32,000 nucleotides of DNA from Candidatus Kuenenia stuttgartensis (GTDB lineage Bacteria > Planctomycetota > Brocadiia > Brocadiales > Brocadiaceae), in contig NZ_LT934425.1 in NCBI RefSeq assembly GCF_900232105.1, positions 810,001 through 842,000 of the forward strand, read 5' to 3'. Positions 3,270 to 25,044 of the stretch are shown piece after piece. The position numbers were made by a program, and so were the translations under genes. Numbering within the stretch: the stretch's first letter is position 1; the number at the start of each line of letters is the position of its first letter. The notes below the pieces were generated by a model that saw nothing but the letters and a program-made list of their open reading frames with translations, was not told where the DNA came from and made no database searches.

Positions 3270-3425
3270 TAAACACTTTGGTTTTTTGAAAAATTCCAAT
3301 AATATAATAACATTGTTTTGCCGCACGGTGTAGAGGCGAAGCATTTGCAATAACTGGCATATATGCGTTCATGCCCAAACATGCAAATGCATCACCCCTA
3401 CGGTTTCATAAAACTAAATTGTTAC
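3270..3425. repeat. Family-A MITE-like element, degenerate copy A1
   Basis: The outer arms are CTAAACACTTTGGTTTTTTGAAAAATT ... AAAACTAAATTGTTAC. The core palindrome is GTAGAGGCGAAGCATTTGCA ... TGCAAATGCATCACCCCTAC (3328-3401). The architecture matches the copies at 9494 and 20307. Confidence 0.7.
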
Positions 3426-20306: not shown

Positions 20307-20458
20307 CGTAACGCTTTAGTTTTTTTAAAAATTCTAATAATAGCGCTGTTTACCGCATAGTGTAGGGACGAAACATTTGCCCGTTTGGGTATGAATGCAT
20401 TTATGACAATTTGCAGCAAATACTTCGCCTATATTTTTTCAAAAAACTAAAGTGTTAC
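20307..20458. mobile_element. Family-A MITE, copy A4 (152 bp), with a near-perfect 8-bp target duplication
   Basis: The ends are GTAACGCTTTAGTTTTTTTAAAAATT and AAAAAACTAAAGTGTTAC, matching the IS66-like IR at 23/26 and 23/25. The flanks are CAATAATC (20299-20306) and CTATAATC (20459-20466), a 7/8 match. The core palindrome is at 20361-20432. Confidence 0.8.
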
Positions 20459-20606
20459 CTATAATCATTTTTTTAAAGTGGCAAGTTTATTCGGCAACAA
20501 ATTGTTACCGATCATTGCATAAAAACAATTTTTTCGCATGATTTTGTCCTTTACTTTCTATTACTTGCACTTGTAAATTATCGTAACACTTTAGTTCTTT
20601 GAAAAA

Positions 20607-21983
20607 TTAACAAGCGATGTTATAAGTTAAGCCGGAAGTGGTTTTTGTTAAAAGAGCTTTTTTGGCGTATGCCAGAAGGTTTTCCACGGGGTTGTCTCCT
20701 TGCAATTCTGCAGAGCGAAGCAACGTCATAAGGATAGCCTGGGTATTGGCGCCCTGAACAGAACGATTCTGTTGTGATACCTTTCGGGTCAATACTGGCT
20801 TTCGCATCTGTTGCTCGGCATGATTATTATAGGGACTCACACCTTCATGTTCCAGGAACGTAAAGAGTTCCTGTTTATGGCGCTTCAGGCGTTTGGTCAA
20901 TCTTTGTACGTCTTTATCCTGACAAGGCGTTGCCAAAAACTGTTCAAGCCTGCGATACAATCTTTTTTTTAGCCGAAGAAAGCATACCAGGCTTATCTGG
21001 TTCTTTTTCTCTGATAACCGGATGGCATCCTTGAGCAACCGGGAGAGTTTTTTCCGGAAAGCTTTCCATGCGGCAGAATGGTTGTGGGCATCTACTTTCA
21101 CGAGTTCCGTGAACAGATGATAGAAACACCGCTGCTTTGCCAGTGCGCTTATCTTGTTGTAAGCGCCCAGAAAGTCACAGATCAGGATACCACCAAATAG
21201 AATGCCCAAGAGTTTTTTTATGACAGGAGACCCCCGACTTGGTGTTATGAGATAGTAGCAGAGTTTTTGTGTTGTAAAACACCATAGCCAATGGGTTTTT
21301 CCATTCAACCTCCATCCGGTTTCATCTGCATGTAAGACAGCGCTTGCGGAGACTTTTTGGCCAATCTCGTTATACTGTGGCTCCAGGAGTGTTGCAAGGG
21401 ATTTCCATGCCTGGGTTAGACCGCCGGCGCTTATTTGAAGGTTGAAAAATACGGAAAGCATCTTTACGATGTTGTTTACACTGATACCGATTAAGTAGTG
21501 AAGCCATGCGGTAAAGACAACAAGGCGCAATCCTAGTCGGGCGCCATGCAACGCATCTGTGACCTTGGGTTGAACTATCTTTTTGCAACAAGCACACCAG
21601 TAACCATGAACTGTATGTTCCGTCACAACAGGGTCAAGGCGTGGAATATCTTCGATGTATCGCTTATAAGTTCTTACCGGTTTTTGTAATGGCTGGTGGC
21701 AATCAGGGCAACTCTCCATGGAATGCGTTTGATAGGCAGTTACTGTTTCAGGTCGTTTCCGGCAAACTCCCTTATGTCCCTTTTTCCTGCCACAAGGCCG
21801 TTTTCTCTTTTTCTTTGTGGGCTTTAGATAGGGCGGTATCGAACCGGAAGGGGTAGTCGGACCCGGTTTATCGCAAAGCCGGTCATATTTTTCTGCTTTC
21901 TCCGCCAGTATCAGGATGGCTTGAATCGCATCCTCTCTGTCCATCTCCAAAATAGCTATGGCTTCATCCCTGGTCACAGTCAA
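20607..21983 (-). CDS. IS66-family DDE transposase (single-ORF, TnpC-like)
   Basis: The zinc-finger region is CPDCHQPL...WCACC. HADETGWRLNG, HWLWCF, CDFLGAYN and NNHAEQQMRKPVLTRKVS are IS66 Tnp motifs. I prefer the TTG at 21983, 4 nt after GGAGG, giving (M)TVTRDEAIAILE. The alternatives are GTG at 21977, ATG at 22040 and ATG at 22145. The stop codon lies inside the terminal IR. Confidence 0.88.
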   Translation of the reverse strand: MTVTRDEAIAILEMDREDAIQAILILAEKAEKYDRLCDKPGPTTPSGSIPPYLKPTKKKRKRPCGRKKGHKGVCRKRPETVTAYQTHSMESCPDCHQPLQKPVRTYKRYIEDIPRLDPVVTEHTVHGYWCACCKKIVQPKVTDALHGARLGLRLVVFTAWLHYLIGISVNNIVKMLSVFFNLQISAGGLTQAWKSLATLLEPQYNEIGQKVSASAVLHADETGWRLNGKTHWLWCFTTQKLCYYLITPSRGSPVIKKLLGILFGGILICDFLGAYNKISALAKQRCFYHLFTELVKVDAHNHSAAWKAFRKKLSRLLKDAIRLSEKKNQISLVCFLRLKKRLYRRLEQFLATPCQDKDVQRLTKRLKRHKQELFTFLEHEGVSPYNNHAEQQMRKPVLTRKVSQQNRSVQGANTQAILMTLLRSAELQGDNPVENLLAYAKKALLTKTTSGLTYNIAC

Positions 21984-22846
21984 GAAACCTCCGAAAGTTT
22001 TTTTGAAGAGGGTAGAGGTAGAGATCCTTAGGTTGGCCATGATACAGATAGCGATTGCCCCGTTTTGCGCTCCCTTTGGTTTTGCCAGCACGAATCCAAT
22101 TGGCCGCCTGATAGCAGGTACCCTTAAACCGCGCGGTATCAACAAAGGTTTTCGGCTAAATAAACGGGATGGCCGTAAACGGTATTCCAGTCATCTGACA
22201 GACGTCTGAGGGCAAGTGACAATACCTTGGATGCAAGGTGTTTGATCTTAACCCATGGTAGAATGAGAAATCGTACGTTATTTGCAATCAAATGTAAGTG
22301 TGTACGTTTAGTCGTCTCATCCCATTCAATGAAACGATCACGGTCTTTGACTTTCCATGCGGCGCTTGCCCACCCCAGGCAGGCAACAACCTGATTGCCT
22401 ATACGTACGATGTGTCTGAGGTGTTCGCCAACAAGCCGGGGATTGCCGAGGTAGTGATAGTGTTGGAAGAGATACTCCCAGAGATATCTTTCCTGAGGGT
22501 CTTTTACCACATGGATTGTCAGGTTTTCATACTCTGTGATTTTACCTTCTAGTGGTCTCCTGACGAAAAGGGGTGTCTGGACAAAGACCTTGGGTTTCAG
22601 ATTGTTTTTGGCCCGTATACGTGGAGGAAGCGTTATCAATCCCTGTTCTTCTAATCTCAAAAGGAGGTCTCGTGCTGCGTATTCTTTATGTTTGCCATTG
22701 GGCTGCACCCAGTTCCAATGCTTGCATAGTTCGCAGGAAATATAAGTCCGACCTCTGAGAAAATGCTGCTCGATGAGCGCCTTTATAAAGGCGATATCGT
22801 CCGCATGCAGTTTTCGTGAACGGTATTGGAATATGATAGGCTTCAT
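21964..22846 (-). pseudogene. DUF4338-domain (DruA-like) protein gene with a +1 frameshift in an A4 run
   Basis: The track ORF 22139-22846 ends ...DWNTVYGHPVYLAENLC*. Skipping one A of GAAAACC (22149-22152) gives LAETFVDTARFKGTCYQAANWIRAGKTKGSAKRGNRYLYHGQPKDLYLYPLQKNFRRFLDCDQG*, stopping at 21964-21966. The combination HYLG...RFLILPWV...LAS...DW...YG...LETFVD..RF.GTCY.AANW is the DUF4338 pattern as I recall it. The span is 883 nt (3n+1). Confidence 0.65.
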
Positions 22847-22955
22847 AAACTGTTTCCCTTTATCCCATGTTCCGGAAAGAAATTACTAAAGTCAAATTTG
22901 GCAAACACTTATAAACATTGATTCTGCGACTACATGTCTTTTGGAAGTCTTTTAA

Positions 22956-24839
22956 TTACTGGCCGAAAACAACATTGGACATTCCAAGTTTTTCCAATAG
23001 CATTTGTGTGACGGCGGGAAGTTTCACGGCTTTCTTTAAGGTTTCACCGGTATTTTTAGCCTCAAGAGTGGCGATATCTATATCTTTGAACGGCGCATAG
23101 AGTTCCTTTGAGTTTAAAAAATCTTTTTCTCCTATTGCCTTTCGTTGGTTTGATAGATAACGGTTTATAAAATATGCCAGGATGCAGATAGTATAGACGG
23201 CTTTAACATGTGCCTCGGTATTGACAAAGAAGGGCCTGATTTTTAAGAACGATTTTACATTTTTAAAGACATCTTCTATTTTTGTCTTGTCCCGATAGGC
23301 TCTAACTATAGATTGGGGTTTTGCTTTAAACGCACCTCCATCTTCCCGTTCTGTATGGTTAGTGATAAAAACACATACGCCATCCAACAATCTATCTGCG
23401 GCTATAACATCAGTTAACAGCTTGATTTCTATTTTGAAACTTTTGACGGATTTGACCTGCCCGTTTTTCAGTCTATGGGTAACGGTGATGGACGTCAGAA
23501 CAGGGTCTTCGAAATATTTATGAATCTTTAACCTTTTCAGCTCATCTACAATGCGGCTCTTTGTTGCGTCATATTGCCGGTCTCTTTGGGCATTTTTAAG
23601 GTTTTTATTCTCTTCTTTGAGATAATCCTTAAAAAAGGTTATTTTCTCGTCTCTATTATTGCGGTCTTCTATAAATAAAGTGGGATTAAAACCGGTAATA
23701 AAACGCTTGTTTCCTATGACGCCATTGTCATGGTAGTATAATTCATCATCATAGTTTAAAAACCCTTGCGGGATAGGTATATCGGAGGCGTCCTTATCTT
23801 CTATGGATAACCCATTAAGAGACTTTAAACTGACACCGCAAGAGGGTATCTGATTTCTATCCAATGCCGAGATGTATTTGAGTTTGGCTTCTTCTATCAA
23901 ATTGGCATTGTCCTCAGAGATTATGCCTCTGTCAAATACAAGGGTGACGTTTTTATCAGTCAATTTGAATCTGGTTTTACAGGCATTGATATTCTGTTTG
24001 AGGGTTTTTACCTCAGCGGTGTTCCCGGGGAATACATCCCATTTGAAAGGATATCCCTCAGAGTTGATAAGAACACCCAGTAAGACCTGCCGCCTGCCAT
24101 GACACTCTATTTTGCCCTTGCCAAATGCCGATAGATCACAGTTATATCCCACAAAGTAGGAAGTAGTTAGGTCGTAGTTGATAAATTTATAGGATTCCGG
24201 ACGTTTCCAGAAGGTTTGGTTAAAAAGGTGGTTCTCTATAGATATTTTGTTTTTGTGTATTTTATCTAATTCATAATAGATTTTATCGTCATTTAGGCCT
24301 GAAAGATCAATTTTAAGAATGTCCTCCAGCGCGCTCTTTTTCGCCCAATGAGGAATGGAATAATGAGAACACGGATCGGTGCACCTGTTAATAGTCAGTA
24401 TCTTTGCAATCATATTGGTAGGAAGGGCGCCTGCAGTGACATCGTAGTCAAAAGCCTGATCAAGCTGCCACTGGTTCCACAACTCATTAACAACGGCTAT
24501 ATCGAGATATGCCCTGCTTTCCAGGACTGCAACGTCTTTGAGCTGAGTCTGCAATTGATCTGTGTTTTCAACTGTTTTACATATCAGTTTGATTTGCTCG
24601 GCTTGAATATCGGAAAGTTTCCCGATGGGCCAAAGTATTCTTTTTCTGACCTTTTTGCCATCCCTGTAGGATTCGGCAATAGAGTAAGATTTATAGGTTT
24701 TCCCTTTGTATTTAGAATCGCTATAAGTAAGGTGCATAATGTAGTCCCAATATTCTTTGACTACACTATCATTAATAAAATATTTTGTCAAGTCAGTATT
24801 TATAGGGTTATAAAGGATTTGTATTAATAAATAGGCCAT
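22956..24839 (-). CDS. IS1634-family (IS4-like) DDE transposase
   Basis: 627 aa. The N-terminal YKGKTYKSYSIAESYRDGKKVRKRILWPIGKL is typical of IS1634 Tnps. Candidate DDE regions are YDLTTSYFVG and VFDRGIISEDN. The true start may be Met35 (24737). Confidence 0.8.
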   Translation of the reverse strand: MAYLLIQILYNPINTDLTKYFINDSVVKEYWDYIMHLTYSDSKYKGKTYKSYSIAESYRDGKKVRKRILWPIGKLSDIQAEQIKLICKTVENTDQLQTQLKDVAVLESRAYLDIAVVNELWNQWQLDQAFDYDVTAGALPTNMIAKILTINRCTDPCSHYSIPHWAKKSALEDILKIDLSGLNDDKIYYELDKIHKNKISIENHLFNQTFWKRPESYKFINYDLTTSYFVGYNCDLSAFGKGKIECHGRRQVLLGVLINSEGYPFKWDVFPGNTAEVKTLKQNINACKTRFKLTDKNVTLVFDRGIISEDNANLIEEAKLKYISALDRNQIPSCGVSLKSLNGLSIEDKDASDIPIPQGFLNYDDELYYHDNGVIGNKRFITGFNPTLFIEDRNNRDEKITFFKDYLKEENKNLKNAQRDRQYDATKSRIVDELKRLKIHKYFEDPVLTSITVTHRLKNGQVKSVKSFKIEIKLLTDVIAADRLLDGVCVFITNHTEREDGGAFKAKPQSIVRAYRDKTKIEDVFKNVKSFLKIRPFFVNTEAHVKAVYTICILAYFINRYLSNQRKAIGEKDFLNSKELYAPFKDIDIATLEAKNTGETLKKAVKLPAVTQMLLEKLGMSNVVFGQ

Positions 24840-25044
24840 TTATTCTGCGACTACATATTATTTTGAATTTGTGGAAACCCGCTTAAAATAAGGATTTTGT
24901 TGAAATCTTTCCGGAAAGGGGGCTTTATTGAAGCCTTTTATACCACAAAGGAAAAACAGACGCCAGCTTTTTTTACCTTTTTTCGCTATTAATTTTTCAA
25001 AGAACTAAAGTGTTACAAATTATCGCATATTTGAAGGAATAATT

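What the first reader, a model, noticed from the sequence alone, without database searches (positions are those of the whole stretch)
20575..25024. IS66-family element with perfect 28-bp IRs and an 8-bp TSD, carrying DUF4338 instead of tnpA/tnpB
Seen directly: GTAACACTTTAGTTCTTTGAAAAATTAA at 20583-20610 is exactly the reverse complement of 24989-25016, and AAATTATC flanks both ends. GTAA termini with an 8-bp duplication are IS66-family hallmarks. The three genes inside are all on the minus strand. The IS66-type Tnp is not preceded by tnpA/tnpB. It is preceded by a DUF4338 gene whose 3' end overlaps the Tnp start (GGAGG-N4-TTG), which looks like translational coupling. As far as I recall, DUF4338 is the domain of DruA in Druantia anti-phage systems and has no known function. 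A conserved DUF4338-Tnp unit would give that domain a transposition-linked role, or identify a new IS66 subgroup. Removing the 1,921 bp bounded by the 22-nt direct repeat leaves 2,513 bp, a normal IS66 size.
Basis: partly seen in the sequence, partly recalled or inferred. Interest (0 to 1): 0.75.

Follow-up and report, generated by a model that had tools for sequence, protein, structure and literature searches.

The report
IS66 transposon carrying Mom-like DruA gene
This is a real jumping gene of the IS66 family in the anammox bacterium Kuenenia, later hit by a second jumping gene; its transposase is paired with a DruA/DUF4338 protein that resembles the DNA-modifying enzyme Mom, and the same protein accompanies, or is fused to, at least six other kinds of transposase, a link I did not find in the literature.

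Summary
A perfect 28-bp inverted repeat (20583-20610 / 24989-25016) and an 8-bp duplication, AAATTATC, bound a 4,434-bp element. Six related Ca. Kuenenia assemblies carry the empty site with a single AAATTATC. The element is a 2,368-bp two-gene IS66-family insertion sequence: a DruA/DUF4338 gene followed by an IS66 transposase gene that overlaps its end. The window copy is degenerate. It has a 1-nt frameshift in DruA and a nested 2,059-bp IS1634-family element (22864-24922, 6-bp duplication CTTTAT). Intact copies with identical transposase sit in at least 8 other Kuenenia contexts. The DUF4338-transposase unit is widespread. 66 of 80 relatives' loci across many phyla have an adjacent transposase: IS66, ISKra4, IS1182-like or IS701. 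A sister clade pairs with Tn5-like transposases, and in-frame DUF4338-transposase fusions exist. The predicted fold is a helical N-domain plus a GNAT domain closest to phage Mu Mom, a tRNA-dependent DNA adenine modifier, and the residues that align with Mom's catalytic residues are nearly invariant. The most likely role is a catalytic transposition cofactor that works with the transposase; its chemistry is untested. No Druantia partner genes lie nearby, and PADLOC DruA models do not match.

The parts
20575..20582 (.). 8-bp target-site duplication AAATTATC, copy on the transposase-gene side
   Evidence: Read directly. Empty sites in L091-L095 and L097 have one copy between identical flanks.
20583..20610 (.). 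Terminal inverted repeat (28 bp, begins GTAA) at the transposase-gene end; overlaps the transposase stop codon
   Evidence: (I2). The same IR occurs in nine further copies.
20607..21983 (-). IS66-family DDE transposase gene: 458 codons from TTG at 21983, or 456 aa from GTG at 21977 as called in public annotations. The ORF is intact.
   Evidence: PF03050 and zf-IS66. NF033517 at 246 bits against a cutoff of 180. Exactly the same 456-aa protein occurs in at least 9 other contexts.
21964..22846 (-). DruA/DUF4338 (Mom-like GNAT) gene, inactivated by a 1-nt insertion (A3 to A4, about 22152). Its 3' end overlaps the transposase start by 14-20 nt.
   Evidence: PF14236. Frameshift located by alignment with the intact copy L099. 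The repaired product differs at one residue from P0001.
22858..22863 (.). 6-bp target-site duplication CTTTAT of the nested IS1634-family element; the second copy is at 24923-24928
   Evidence: An intact copy (L001) aligns to both sides with a 6-nt overlap. Other copies of the nested element also have 6-bp duplications.
22864..24922 (-). Nested IS1634-family insertion sequence, 2,059 bp, with imperfect terminal IRs (CCCATGTTCCGGAAAGAAATT / CCCCCTTTCCGGAAAGATTTC). Inserted 11 nt upstream of the DruA start codon (22846). Its transposase gene is at 22956-24839.
   Evidence: NF033559 at 235 bits. Boundaries. The identical 2,059-bp element sits in 5 other contexts, each with its own 6-bp duplication.
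24923..25016 (.). Displaced left end of the IS66-type element: about 90 bp of 5' leader plus the 28-bp IR at 24989-25016
   Evidence: 100% match to L001 positions 2-86; IR.
25017..25024 (.). 8-bp target-site duplication AAATTATC, second copy
20308..20458 (.). 151-bp MITE-like element whose termini are related to the IS66-type IRs (GTAACGCTTTAGTT... / ...AACTAAAGTGTTAC), with flanks CAATAATC / CTATAATC. Probably a non-autonomous derivative.
   Evidence: (I1, I3). Present in all Kuenenia assemblies, including those with the empty site.
3270..3425 (.). Second, more degenerate copy of the same MITE-like family

Best explanation
SHOWN. The feature is a composite of two insertion sequences in a Candidatus Kuenenia stuttgartiensis chromosome. 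First, a 2,368-bp IS66-family element transposed into the intergenic region between a deaminase gene and an acyltransferase gene and duplicated AAATTATC. Its parts are 28-bp GTAA... inverted repeats, a leader of about 105 bp, a 293-aa DruA/DUF4338 gene, and a 456/458-aa IS66 DDE transposase gene whose start overlaps the DruA stop. This copy then decayed. A 2,059-bp IS1634-family element inserted 11 nt upstream of the DruA start codon and duplicated CTTTAT, and a 1-nt insertion shifted the DruA reading frame. The transposase ORF and both ends remain intact, so the copy could still be moved in trans by the intact sister copies in the genome. The two-gene unit is a widespread and recently active type of insertion sequence. 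DUF4338 is not specific to IS66. It sits next to IS66, ISKra4, IS1182-like, IS701 and Tn5-like transposase genes, and it is fused in frame to IS701-type (DDE_5), DDE_Tnp_1, ISAs1-type and IS66 transposases. INFERRED. DUF4338 is an accessory subunit of the transposition machinery that is made together with the transposase and acts with it, by translational coupling here and by fusion elsewhere. It consists of a helical, HTH-like N-terminal domain and a GNAT domain of the phage Mu Mom type, and the residues that align with Mom's catalytic residues are nearly invariant. My preferred mechanism (about 35-40%) is that it binds DNA and transfers an acyl or aminoacyl group, from acyl-CoA or charged tRNA, to DNA at or near the transposon ends or the target. 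That mark would license, time or protect transposition, much as Dam methylation gates IS10/IS50. It takes the place that TnpA/TnpB hold in canonical IS66 elements.
For: Mobility: perfect IRs and duplication. Empty sites in six assemblies. Nine further 2,368-bp copies with identical IRs and transposase, four of them with perfect 8-bp duplications TTTTCTGG, AATATTTT, AAATAATT and CTTTTTTT. A relative (P0102) in five contexts with duplications AAATTTTG, CCCTCTTT and AAAAATTC. Nesting: alignment with an intact copy, and the 2,059-bp IS1634 element in 5 other sites with 6-bp duplications. Organism: the locus matches CP049055 and GCA_900232175, CP049055 is Ca. Kuenenia stuttgartiensis CSTR1, and one copy lies next to the hydrazine synthase gene. 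Link to transposases: 66 of 80 genome loci have an adjacent transposase gene, namely 52 IS66 downstream, 5 IS66 upstream, 5 ISKra4, 3 IS1182-like and 1 IS701. Tn5-like partner with a 4-nt overlap. An ISKra4-type unit with a 9-bp duplication in the isolate genome of Desulfobacter curvatus DSM 3379. Fusions DruA-DDE_5 (four separate 50% clusters), DruA-DDE_Tnp_1, DruA-ISAs1-type and IS66-DruA. Most DUF4338-bearing contigs are 2.3-2.8 kb, the size of one element. Fold: AlphaFold2 pLDDT 82.9. The best solved-structure match is Mu Mom 8bv8 (E 8e-6), followed by generic GNATs. Mom is also near the top among viral models. Weak Pfam Mom hits. DUF4338 was called a GNAT in PMC10853773. Active site: H131, R169 and R192 are conserved in 162 of 162 diverse members, S206 in 161, Y245 in 159, N249 in 160 and D/E236 in 151. 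These align with Mom H58/Y59, S124, D149 and Y159, residues reported as essential or important for Mom activity in PMC13219725.
Against: No experiment links DUF4338 to transposition. The profile alignment to Mom is statistically weak (hhalign probability 1.9%, E 0.026). Pfam Mom scores of 15-25 bits are below the 27.1-bit gathering threshold. R192 = Mom R111 and R239 = Mom R151 require small shifts of that alignment. Mom's essential HTH-like insertion is absent. MITE-like derivatives without the gene have evidently moved, so it is not needed in cis. Canonical Pfam naming places the domain in a defence system (Druantia), so a cargo role is conceivable. Many copies in short-read MAG contigs lack matching duplications; I attribute this to chimeric assembly across repeats but did not prove it. 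ISfinder could not be queried, so the element type may already be catalogued.
Confidence: 0.8

Rival explanations
1. DUF4338 is cargo, not a transposition factor. It would be a defence or anti-defence gene that the insertion sequences carry because it benefits the host or the replicon they ride on: either a Mom-like anti-restriction DNA modifier, or a stand-alone relative of Druantia DruA.
For: The Pfam family is named after Druantia DruA. The closest solved fold, Mom, is an anti-restriction enzyme. Some databases name these proteins DruA. MITE-like derivatives move without it.
Against: In-frame fusions to four kinds of transposase, in both orders. Start/stop overlap with the transposase gene is conserved across unrelated transposase families. 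It is the only non-transposase gene in minimal elements of 2.36-2.7 kb. No DruB-E or helicase genes lie near any of more than 20 inspected copies. PADLOC DruA models give no hit at E<1. Cargo genes of insertion sequences are normally sporadic, not family-wide.
Confidence: 0.2
2. DUF4338 is a protein acetyltransferase that regulates transposition by modifying the transposase or a host nucleoid protein, not DNA.
For: Most GNATs acylate proteins or small molecules, and the Foldseek list after Mom is dominated by protein and polyamine acetyltransferases. Fusion to the transposase would suit modification in cis.
Against: The best structural and profile matches are to Mom specifically, and Mom-specific residues (HY, S, D-x-R, Y) are conserved. 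The N-terminal helical domain suggests nucleic-acid binding. A common protein substrate across six divergent transposase families is hard to picture.
Confidence: 0.15
3. DUF4338 is a non-catalytic DNA-binding adaptor that recognises ends or selects targets, and its GNAT fold has been reused as a scaffold.
For: Accessory proteins of many insertion sequences are DNA-binding or ATPase adaptors (established knowledge). The N-terminal domain is predicted with high confidence and has invariant R33, W46, G51 and R59.
Against: Residues at the predicted active site are conserved in 159-162 of 162 members drawn from all partner classes, which argues for retained catalysis.
Confidence: 0.12
4. The IR/duplication pair is two independent MITE arms that sit in inverted orientation by chance, enclosing unrelated genes.
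For: MITE-like elements with related termini do exist 125 bp away and at 3270-3425.
Against: Six assemblies have a precise empty site with one AAATTATC. Nine other copies carry the same two genes between the same IRs at exactly 2,368 bp.
Confidence: 0.01

Closest known systems
Canonical IS66 group (IS66, IS679, ISRm14: tnpA-tnpB-tnpC)
   Same: A homologous DDE transposase (PF03050 with the zf-IS66 zinc finger; NF033517 above its cutoff), termini beginning 5'-GTAA, an 8-bp target duplication, a size of 2-3 kb, and overlapping reading frames upstream of the transposase gene.
   Different: It has no tnpA and no tnpB (PF05717). A single unrelated 293-aa HTH-like + Mom-like GNAT gene takes their place. 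The transposase gave no Pfam hit to the N-terminal leucine-zipper domain (LZ_Tnp_IS66) or the C-terminal DDE_Tnp_IS66_C domain.
ISBst12 group of the IS66 family (transposase gene only; from memory of ISfinder/TnPedia)
   Same: An IS66-type transposase without tnpA/tnpB.
   Different: As I recall them, ISBst12-type elements have one ORF and are 1.35-1.9 kb. This element has two genes and is 2,368 bp. I could not test against ISfinder.
Phage Mu Mom (tRNA-Gly-dependent DNA adenine aminoacyltransferase; PDB 8bv8; PMC13219725)
   Same: Mom is the best solved-structure match to the GNAT domain (E 8e-6), and the residues that align with Mom H58/Y59, S124, D149 and Y159 are conserved. Both are encoded by transposable or invasive DNA; Mu is itself a transposing phage.
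   Different: Sequence identity is only about 18%, and the Pfam Mom score is below threshold. The domain has an extra N-terminal helical domain instead of Mom's internal HTH-like insertion. It is paired with a transposase rather than expressed as a late phage gene. Its substrate, donor and any activity are unknown.
DruA of Druantia type I anti-phage systems (PF14236)
   Same: The same Pfam domain family, with scores well above threshold.
   Different: No druB-druE neighbours. PADLOC DruA models do not match. These proteins are about 292-298 aa and are always embedded in an insertion sequence. They should not be counted as Druantia components.
TnpB/IscB of IS200/IS605 and IS607 (an analogy only, from established knowledge)
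   Same: A conserved accessory gene that is shared by elements with unrelated transposases and whose role is not the strand-transfer chemistry itself.
   Different: A completely different fold (RuvC nuclease versus GNAT). No guide RNA is evident. DUF4338 also occurs fused to the transposase.

Membership tests
IS66 family (insertion sequence) | Transposase homologous to IS66 TnpC (DDE_Tnp_IS66) | tested here: met
   PF03050 E 1.6e-37; zf-IS66 27.8 bits against a cutoff of 27.3; NF033517 246 bits against a cutoff of 180.
IS66 family (insertion sequence) | Terminal inverted repeats beginning 5'-GTAA | tested here: met
   GTAACACTTTAG..., 28 of 28 complementary. Relatives have GTATCA/GTAAGA, GTGTCA, GTAATA and GTAACT.
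IS66 family (insertion sequence) | 8-bp target-site duplication, with evidence of insertion | tested here: met
   AAATTATC on both sides. Empty site in six assemblies. Perfect 8-bp duplications at 4 other Kuenenia copies and 3 copies of a relative.
IS66 family, canonical IS66 group | Accessory genes tnpA and tnpB upstream of the transposase gene | tested here: not met
   The only upstream gene is DUF4338. A canonical tnpB-bearing IS66 seen on a Thiodictyon plasmid looks different.
IS66 family, ISBst12 group | Single-ORF element of about 1.35-1.9 kb (definition from memory) | tested here: not met
   Two genes and 2,368 bp. A comparison with ISfinder entries is not possible with these tools.
Named ISfinder element or subgroup | At least 95% DNA identity to, or a listed relative among, deposited elements | not testable with these tools
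   There is no access to ISfinder. Full-text searches for DUF4338, PF14236 or DruA together with transposase found no description.
Druantia type I (DruA) | PF14236 domain | tested here: met
   135 bits against a cutoff of 27 for the intact protein.
Druantia type I (DruA) | Operon with druB-druE, including the DruE helicase | tested here: not met
   Neighbours of more than 20 copies are a transposase gene and unrelated housekeeping genes.
Druantia type I (DruA) | Match to the PADLOC DruA models | tested here: not met
   No PADLOC family at E<=1.
Mom family (PF25680; tRNA-dependent DNA aminoacyltransferase) | GNAT fold closest to Mom | tested here: met
   The top Foldseek PDB hit is 8bv8_B, Mom (E 8e-6, TM 0.60 on the target). 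A Salmonella phage Mom ranks 4th in BFVD.
Mom family (PF25680; tRNA-dependent DNA aminoacyltransferase) | Sequence-profile membership (Pfam gathering score 27.1) | tested here: not met
   15.3, 24.6 and 20.0 bits for P0001, P0024 and P0102. hhalign gives E 0.026 and probability 1.9%.
Mom family (PF25680; tRNA-dependent DNA aminoacyltransferase) | Catalytic residues H58, Y59, R111, S124, D149, R151, Y159 | tested here: inconclusive
   Aligned equivalents H131/Y132, S206, D236 and Y245 are conserved in 151-162 of 162 members. R192 and R239 match only after small shifts of a weak alignment.
Mom family (PF25680; tRNA-dependent DNA aminoacyltransferase) | Aminoacyl-tRNA-dependent modification of DNA adenine | not testable with these tools
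   This needs biochemistry or nucleoside mass spectrometry.
IS1634 family (the nested element) | IS1634-type DDE transposase, terminal IRs, short target duplication, multiple copies | tested here: met
   NF033559 235 bits against a cutoff of 100. Imperfect 21-bp IRs, and 6-bp duplications at 6 sites including this one. The identical transposase occurs in at least 7 contexts.

The most novel reading that the evidence does not exclude
DUF4338/DruA is a Mom-like nucleic-acid acyl- or aminoacyl-transferase that forms part of the transposition machinery of at least six unrelated DDE transposase families. On this reading, a covalent DNA modification, possibly dependent on charged tRNA, is a previously unrecognised step or checkpoint in bacterial and archaeal transposition, and Druantia's DruA is a domesticated transposon protein (or the transfer went the other way).
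Probability: 0.3. Interest if true: 0.88.

Novelty: new variant of a known kind. Interest (0 to 1): 0.72.

Why it matters
Four reasons.

1. It gives a testable function to a large orphan family. There are about 8,000 clusters at 50% identity, and more than 12,000 clusters at 90% identity in just two subclades. The family has been known only as a component of the mechanistically unresolved Druantia type I system. A protein that is translationally coupled to transposases, or fused to them, in six families almost certainly acts on DNA with them.

2. It links transposition to the newly described Mom chemistry, in which charged tRNA is used to modify DNA adenine. If a similar reaction occurs at transposon ends or targets, that would be a new layer of transposition control.

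3. It defines an IS66 subgroup in which tnpA/tnpB are replaced by a different accessory gene. This could help explain what IS66 accessory proteins do.

4. A practical point: proteins carried on these elements are already being labelled 'Druantia anti-phage system protein DruA' in public annotations. That inflates defence-system counts in genomes and MAGs rich in insertion sequences.

Tried and rejected
- The PADLOC scan of the intact DruA-like protein gave no hit.
- A sequence search of the PDB with the family profile found nothing meaningful.
- The first AlphaFold2 run, on a shallow alignment (63-84% identity), was poor (pLDDT 64). I discarded it and used a second alignment that adds the 36%-identical Tn5-linked clade (pLDDT 82.9).
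- An automated IR/duplication search over 51 loci found clear IRs in only about 20 and a matching duplication in one, L070. The Tn5-type copies also lacked matching duplications. I attribute this to short or divergent IRs and to chimeric short-read contigs, but did not prove it.
- The sigma-70 promoter scan found nothing in the 105-bp left end. This is uninformative for a planctomycete.
- I considered programmed -1 frameshifting at the A AAA AAC run (21998-22004) as a way to make a DruA-transposase fusion. I rejected it because the -1 frame stops after 7 codons and the transposase gene is in the +1 frame (read from the sequence).
The repeat lies inside the IS1634 element, on either side of its transposase ORF.
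- Literature searches for any prior description of a DUF4338/DruA-transposase link found none in the held library.
- The preprint on YprA helicases said nothing about DruA itself.

Full report
**Observation.** GTAACACTTTAGTTCTTTGAAAAATTAA at 20583-20610 is the exact reverse complement of 24989-25016 (pair I2). None of 100 dinucleotide-preserving shuffles produced a match. AAATTATC abuts both ends, at 20575-20582 and 25017-25024. Three minus-strand genes lie inside:
- An IS66-family transposase: PF03050 E 1.6e-37, plus the zf-IS66 zinc finger; NCBIfam NF033517 at 246 bits against a cutoff of 180.
- A DUF4338 gene, which Pfam now calls 'DruA' (PF14236, E 2.3e-29). Its profile match stops halfway because of a frameshift.
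- An IS1634-family transposase: NF033559 at 235 bits against a cutoff of 100.

Joining the two DUF4338 frames gives a 293-aa protein that differs at one residue from a real database protein, P0001.

**Proof of mobility, and the organism.** I looked up the flanking acyltransferase protein in public assemblies. One contig carries the same insertion (L090, 99.8% identical to the window). Six carry the uninterrupted site: identical left flank, one AAATTATC, identical right flank (L091-L095 and L097). [quoted passage not shown] Another copy of the element lies beside the hydrazine synthase gene. The same 456-aa transposase, residue for residue, occurs with an intact 293-aa DUF4338 gene in at least nine other genomic contexts, several within one assembly. 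Each of those copies is exactly 2,368 bp with the same perfect 28-bp IRs. Four have perfect 8-bp duplications: TTTTCTGG, AATATTTT, AAATAATT and CTTTTTTT. The element is thus a recently active, multi-copy insertion sequence with AT-rich targets.

**Correction of the anatomy.** An intact copy (L001) aligns to the window in two blocks. L001 positions 2-86 match 25007-24923, and positions 81-1912 match 22863-21031. The blocks share 6 nt, and the second contains a single indel. The nested element is therefore 22864-24922 (2,059 bp), flanked by a 6-bp duplication CTTTAT, and it has imperfect terminal IRs. The same 2,059-bp IS1634-family element occurs at five other sites, each with its own 6-bp duplication. 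The arithmetic is 4,434 - 2,059 - 6 - 1 = 2,368 bp. The IS1634 element landed 11 nt upstream of the DUF4338 start codon and cut the operon off from its leader. The frameshift is one extra A in an A-run (GCCGAAACC became GCCGAAAACC, about 22152). The window copy is therefore a decayed copy with an intact transposase ORF and intact ends.

**The two-gene unit is conserved.** A relative 64-65% identical to it (P0102) shows the same layout with a 14-nt overlap in five different contexts. Its ends are GTATCATTTTAGCC... / ...GGGCTAAAATCTTAC, and its duplications are AAATTTTG, CCCTCTTT and AAAAATTC. The homology search found 4,369 relatives of about 292 aa. Most sit on contigs of 2.3-2.8 kb, the size of one element, as expected for repeats that break assemblies.

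**The surprise: DUF4338 is not tied to IS66.** They come from Proteobacteria, Desulfobacterota, Acidobacteriota, Planctomycetota, Verrucomicrobiota, Chloroflexota, Bacteroidota and archaea. Of the 80 loci kept, 66 have a transposase gene directly adjacent on the same strand:

| Adjacent transposase | Loci |
|---|---|
| IS66-type, downstream | 52 |
| IS66-type, upstream | 5 |
| ISKra4 | 5 |
| IS1182-like | 3 |
| IS701 | 1 |

Most of the remaining 14 loci run off the end of their contig. One ISKra4-type unit, in the isolate genome of Desulfobacter curvatus DSM 3379, has GGG... IRs and a 9-bp duplication. A sister clade, 36% identical and with at least 7,936 members, is coupled by a 4-nt overlap to a Tn5/IS50-like transposase. 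That element is 2,364 bp and has IS50-like ends, CTGACTATTA.... In the library of 50%-identity representatives the family has 8,090 clusters. These include in-frame fusions: DUF4338-DDE_5 (four separate clusters of 724-747 aa), DUF4338-DDE_Tnp_1, DUF4338-DDE_Tnp_1_assoc-DDE_Tnp_1 (ISAs1 type), and IS66 transposase-DUF4338 (810 and 883 aa). A rough neighbour-joining tree nests the ISKra4-, IS1182- and IS701-linked proteins among the IS66-linked ones, which implies repeated partner switching (no support values). Gene fusion, conserved start/stop overlap and minimal element size together argue that the protein works with the transposase and is not cargo.

**What the protein is.** With an alignment that combines both clades, AlphaFold2 gives a confident model (pLDDT 82.9). 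It shows an N-terminal three-helix domain (residues about 1-75; I infer it is HTH-like) and a C-terminal alpha/beta domain. The best match among solved structures is phage Mu Mom (8bv8, E 8e-6), followed by generic GNAT acyltransferases. Among viral models a Salmonella phage Mom ranks fourth. Pfam's Mom profile gives weak hits below threshold. An earlier comparative study also called DUF4338 a GNAT (PMC10853773). Mom was recently shown to use Gly-tRNA to modify DNA adenine, with H58, Y59, R111, S124, D149, R151 and Y159 in or near the active site (PMC13219725). A statistically weak profile alignment places DUF4338 H131/Y132, S206, D236 and Y245 on Mom H58/Y59, S124, D149 and Y159. R192 and R239 fall within one to a few residues of R111 and R151. 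Across 162 diverse family members from all partner classes and fusions, H131, R169 and R192 are invariant. S206 is conserved in 161, Y245 in 159, N249 in 160, and D/E236 in 151. This points to a conserved catalytic site.

**Mechanism.** Shown: cut-and-paste or copy-type DDE transposition at GTAA ends with 8-bp duplications, co-expression of DUF4338 and the transposase, and nested decay of this copy. Inferred: DUF4338 is a trans-acting catalytic accessory subunit. My preferred reading (about 35-40%) is a Mom-like transfer of an acyl or aminoacyl group to DNA that licenses, times or protects transposition, filling the slot that TnpA/TnpB hold in canonical IS66 elements. The alternatives are acetylation of a protein, a non-catalytic adaptor, or defence/anti-defence cargo; each is weighed in the report sections. 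The MITE-like elements at 20308-20458 and 3270-3425 have related termini but no genes. If DUF4338 is needed, it therefore acts in trans.

**Comparison and novelty.** The element meets the IS66 family criteria for transposase, GTAA ends and 8-bp duplication. It fails the canonical-group criterion (tnpA/tnpB) and, as I remember its definition, the ISBst12 criterion (a single ORF of 1.35-1.9 kb). It carries the Druantia DruA Pfam domain, but it has no DruB-E neighbours and does not match the PADLOC DruA models, so it is not a Druantia system. Full-text searches found no paper that connects DUF4338, PF14236 or DruA with transposases. I could not query ISfinder. I rate it a new variant of a known kind. 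The cross-family partnership with a Mom-like protein is the part a specialist would find surprising, and it makes the function of DUF4338/DruA directly testable.

Noticed in passing
window 20308-20458 and 3270-3425: Two MITE-like elements (151 and about 156 bp) have termini related to the IS66-type IRs and share internal sequence. The first has near-identical 8-bp flanks (CAATAATC / CTATAATC) and is present in all Kuenenia assemblies, including those with the empty site. They are probably non-autonomous derivatives moved by the same transposase.
   Followed up: partly
window 22921-22935 and 24842-24856 (inside the nested IS1634 element): An exact 15-nt direct repeat, ATTCTGCGACTACAT (31 nt at 84%), lies just outside both ends of the IS1634 transposase ORF. 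It is an internal feature of the 2,059-bp element, not its boundary, and its role is unknown.
   Followed up: partly
L096 (GCA_020063645.1 JAIOHI010019777.1): At the same acyltransferase locus, the right IS66-type end plus an IS1634-type transposase gene are joined to unrelated upstream genes (methyltransferases, a sulfotransferase). This is either a rearrangement mediated by the IS1634 element or an assembly chimera.
   Followed up: no
P0078, P0069; contigs of 2.8-3.7 kb: Public annotations name DUF4338 proteins carried on these elements 'Druantia anti-phage system protein DruA' or 'Druantia protein DruA'. This is likely to produce false Druantia calls in genomes rich in insertion sequences.
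   Followed up: partly
L108-L111 (JGI metagenomes); L008/L009 (Ca. Thiodictyon syntrophicum plasmids): A sister DUF4338 clade (at least 7,936 homologues) is coupled by a 4-nt overlap to a Tn5/IS50-like transposase in a 2,364-bp element with ends CTGACTATTAACCACATCTC. On plasmid pTs417 a 444-aa 'ISAs1 family transposase' is a DUF4338-ISAs1 hybrid. L108 1856-3076 is an ORF that hits DruA, DDE_Tnp_1_assoc and IS66 domains together.
   Followed up: partly
window 20607-20609 within IR 20583-20610; window 21998-22004: The transposase stop codon lies inside the terminal inverted repeat. A run of seven A (A AAA AAC in the DruA frame) sits 30 nt before the DruA stop. A -1 slip there would terminate after 7 codons, so it does not create a DruA-transposase fusion.
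   Followed up: yes
L051 1622-3154 (Verrucomicrobiae MAG): One DUF4338 locus has a Mu-type transposase gene (rve + Mu-transpos_C_2) about 850 nt upstream instead of an adjacent IS66-type gene. This may be a further partner class or may be coincidental.
   Followed up: no
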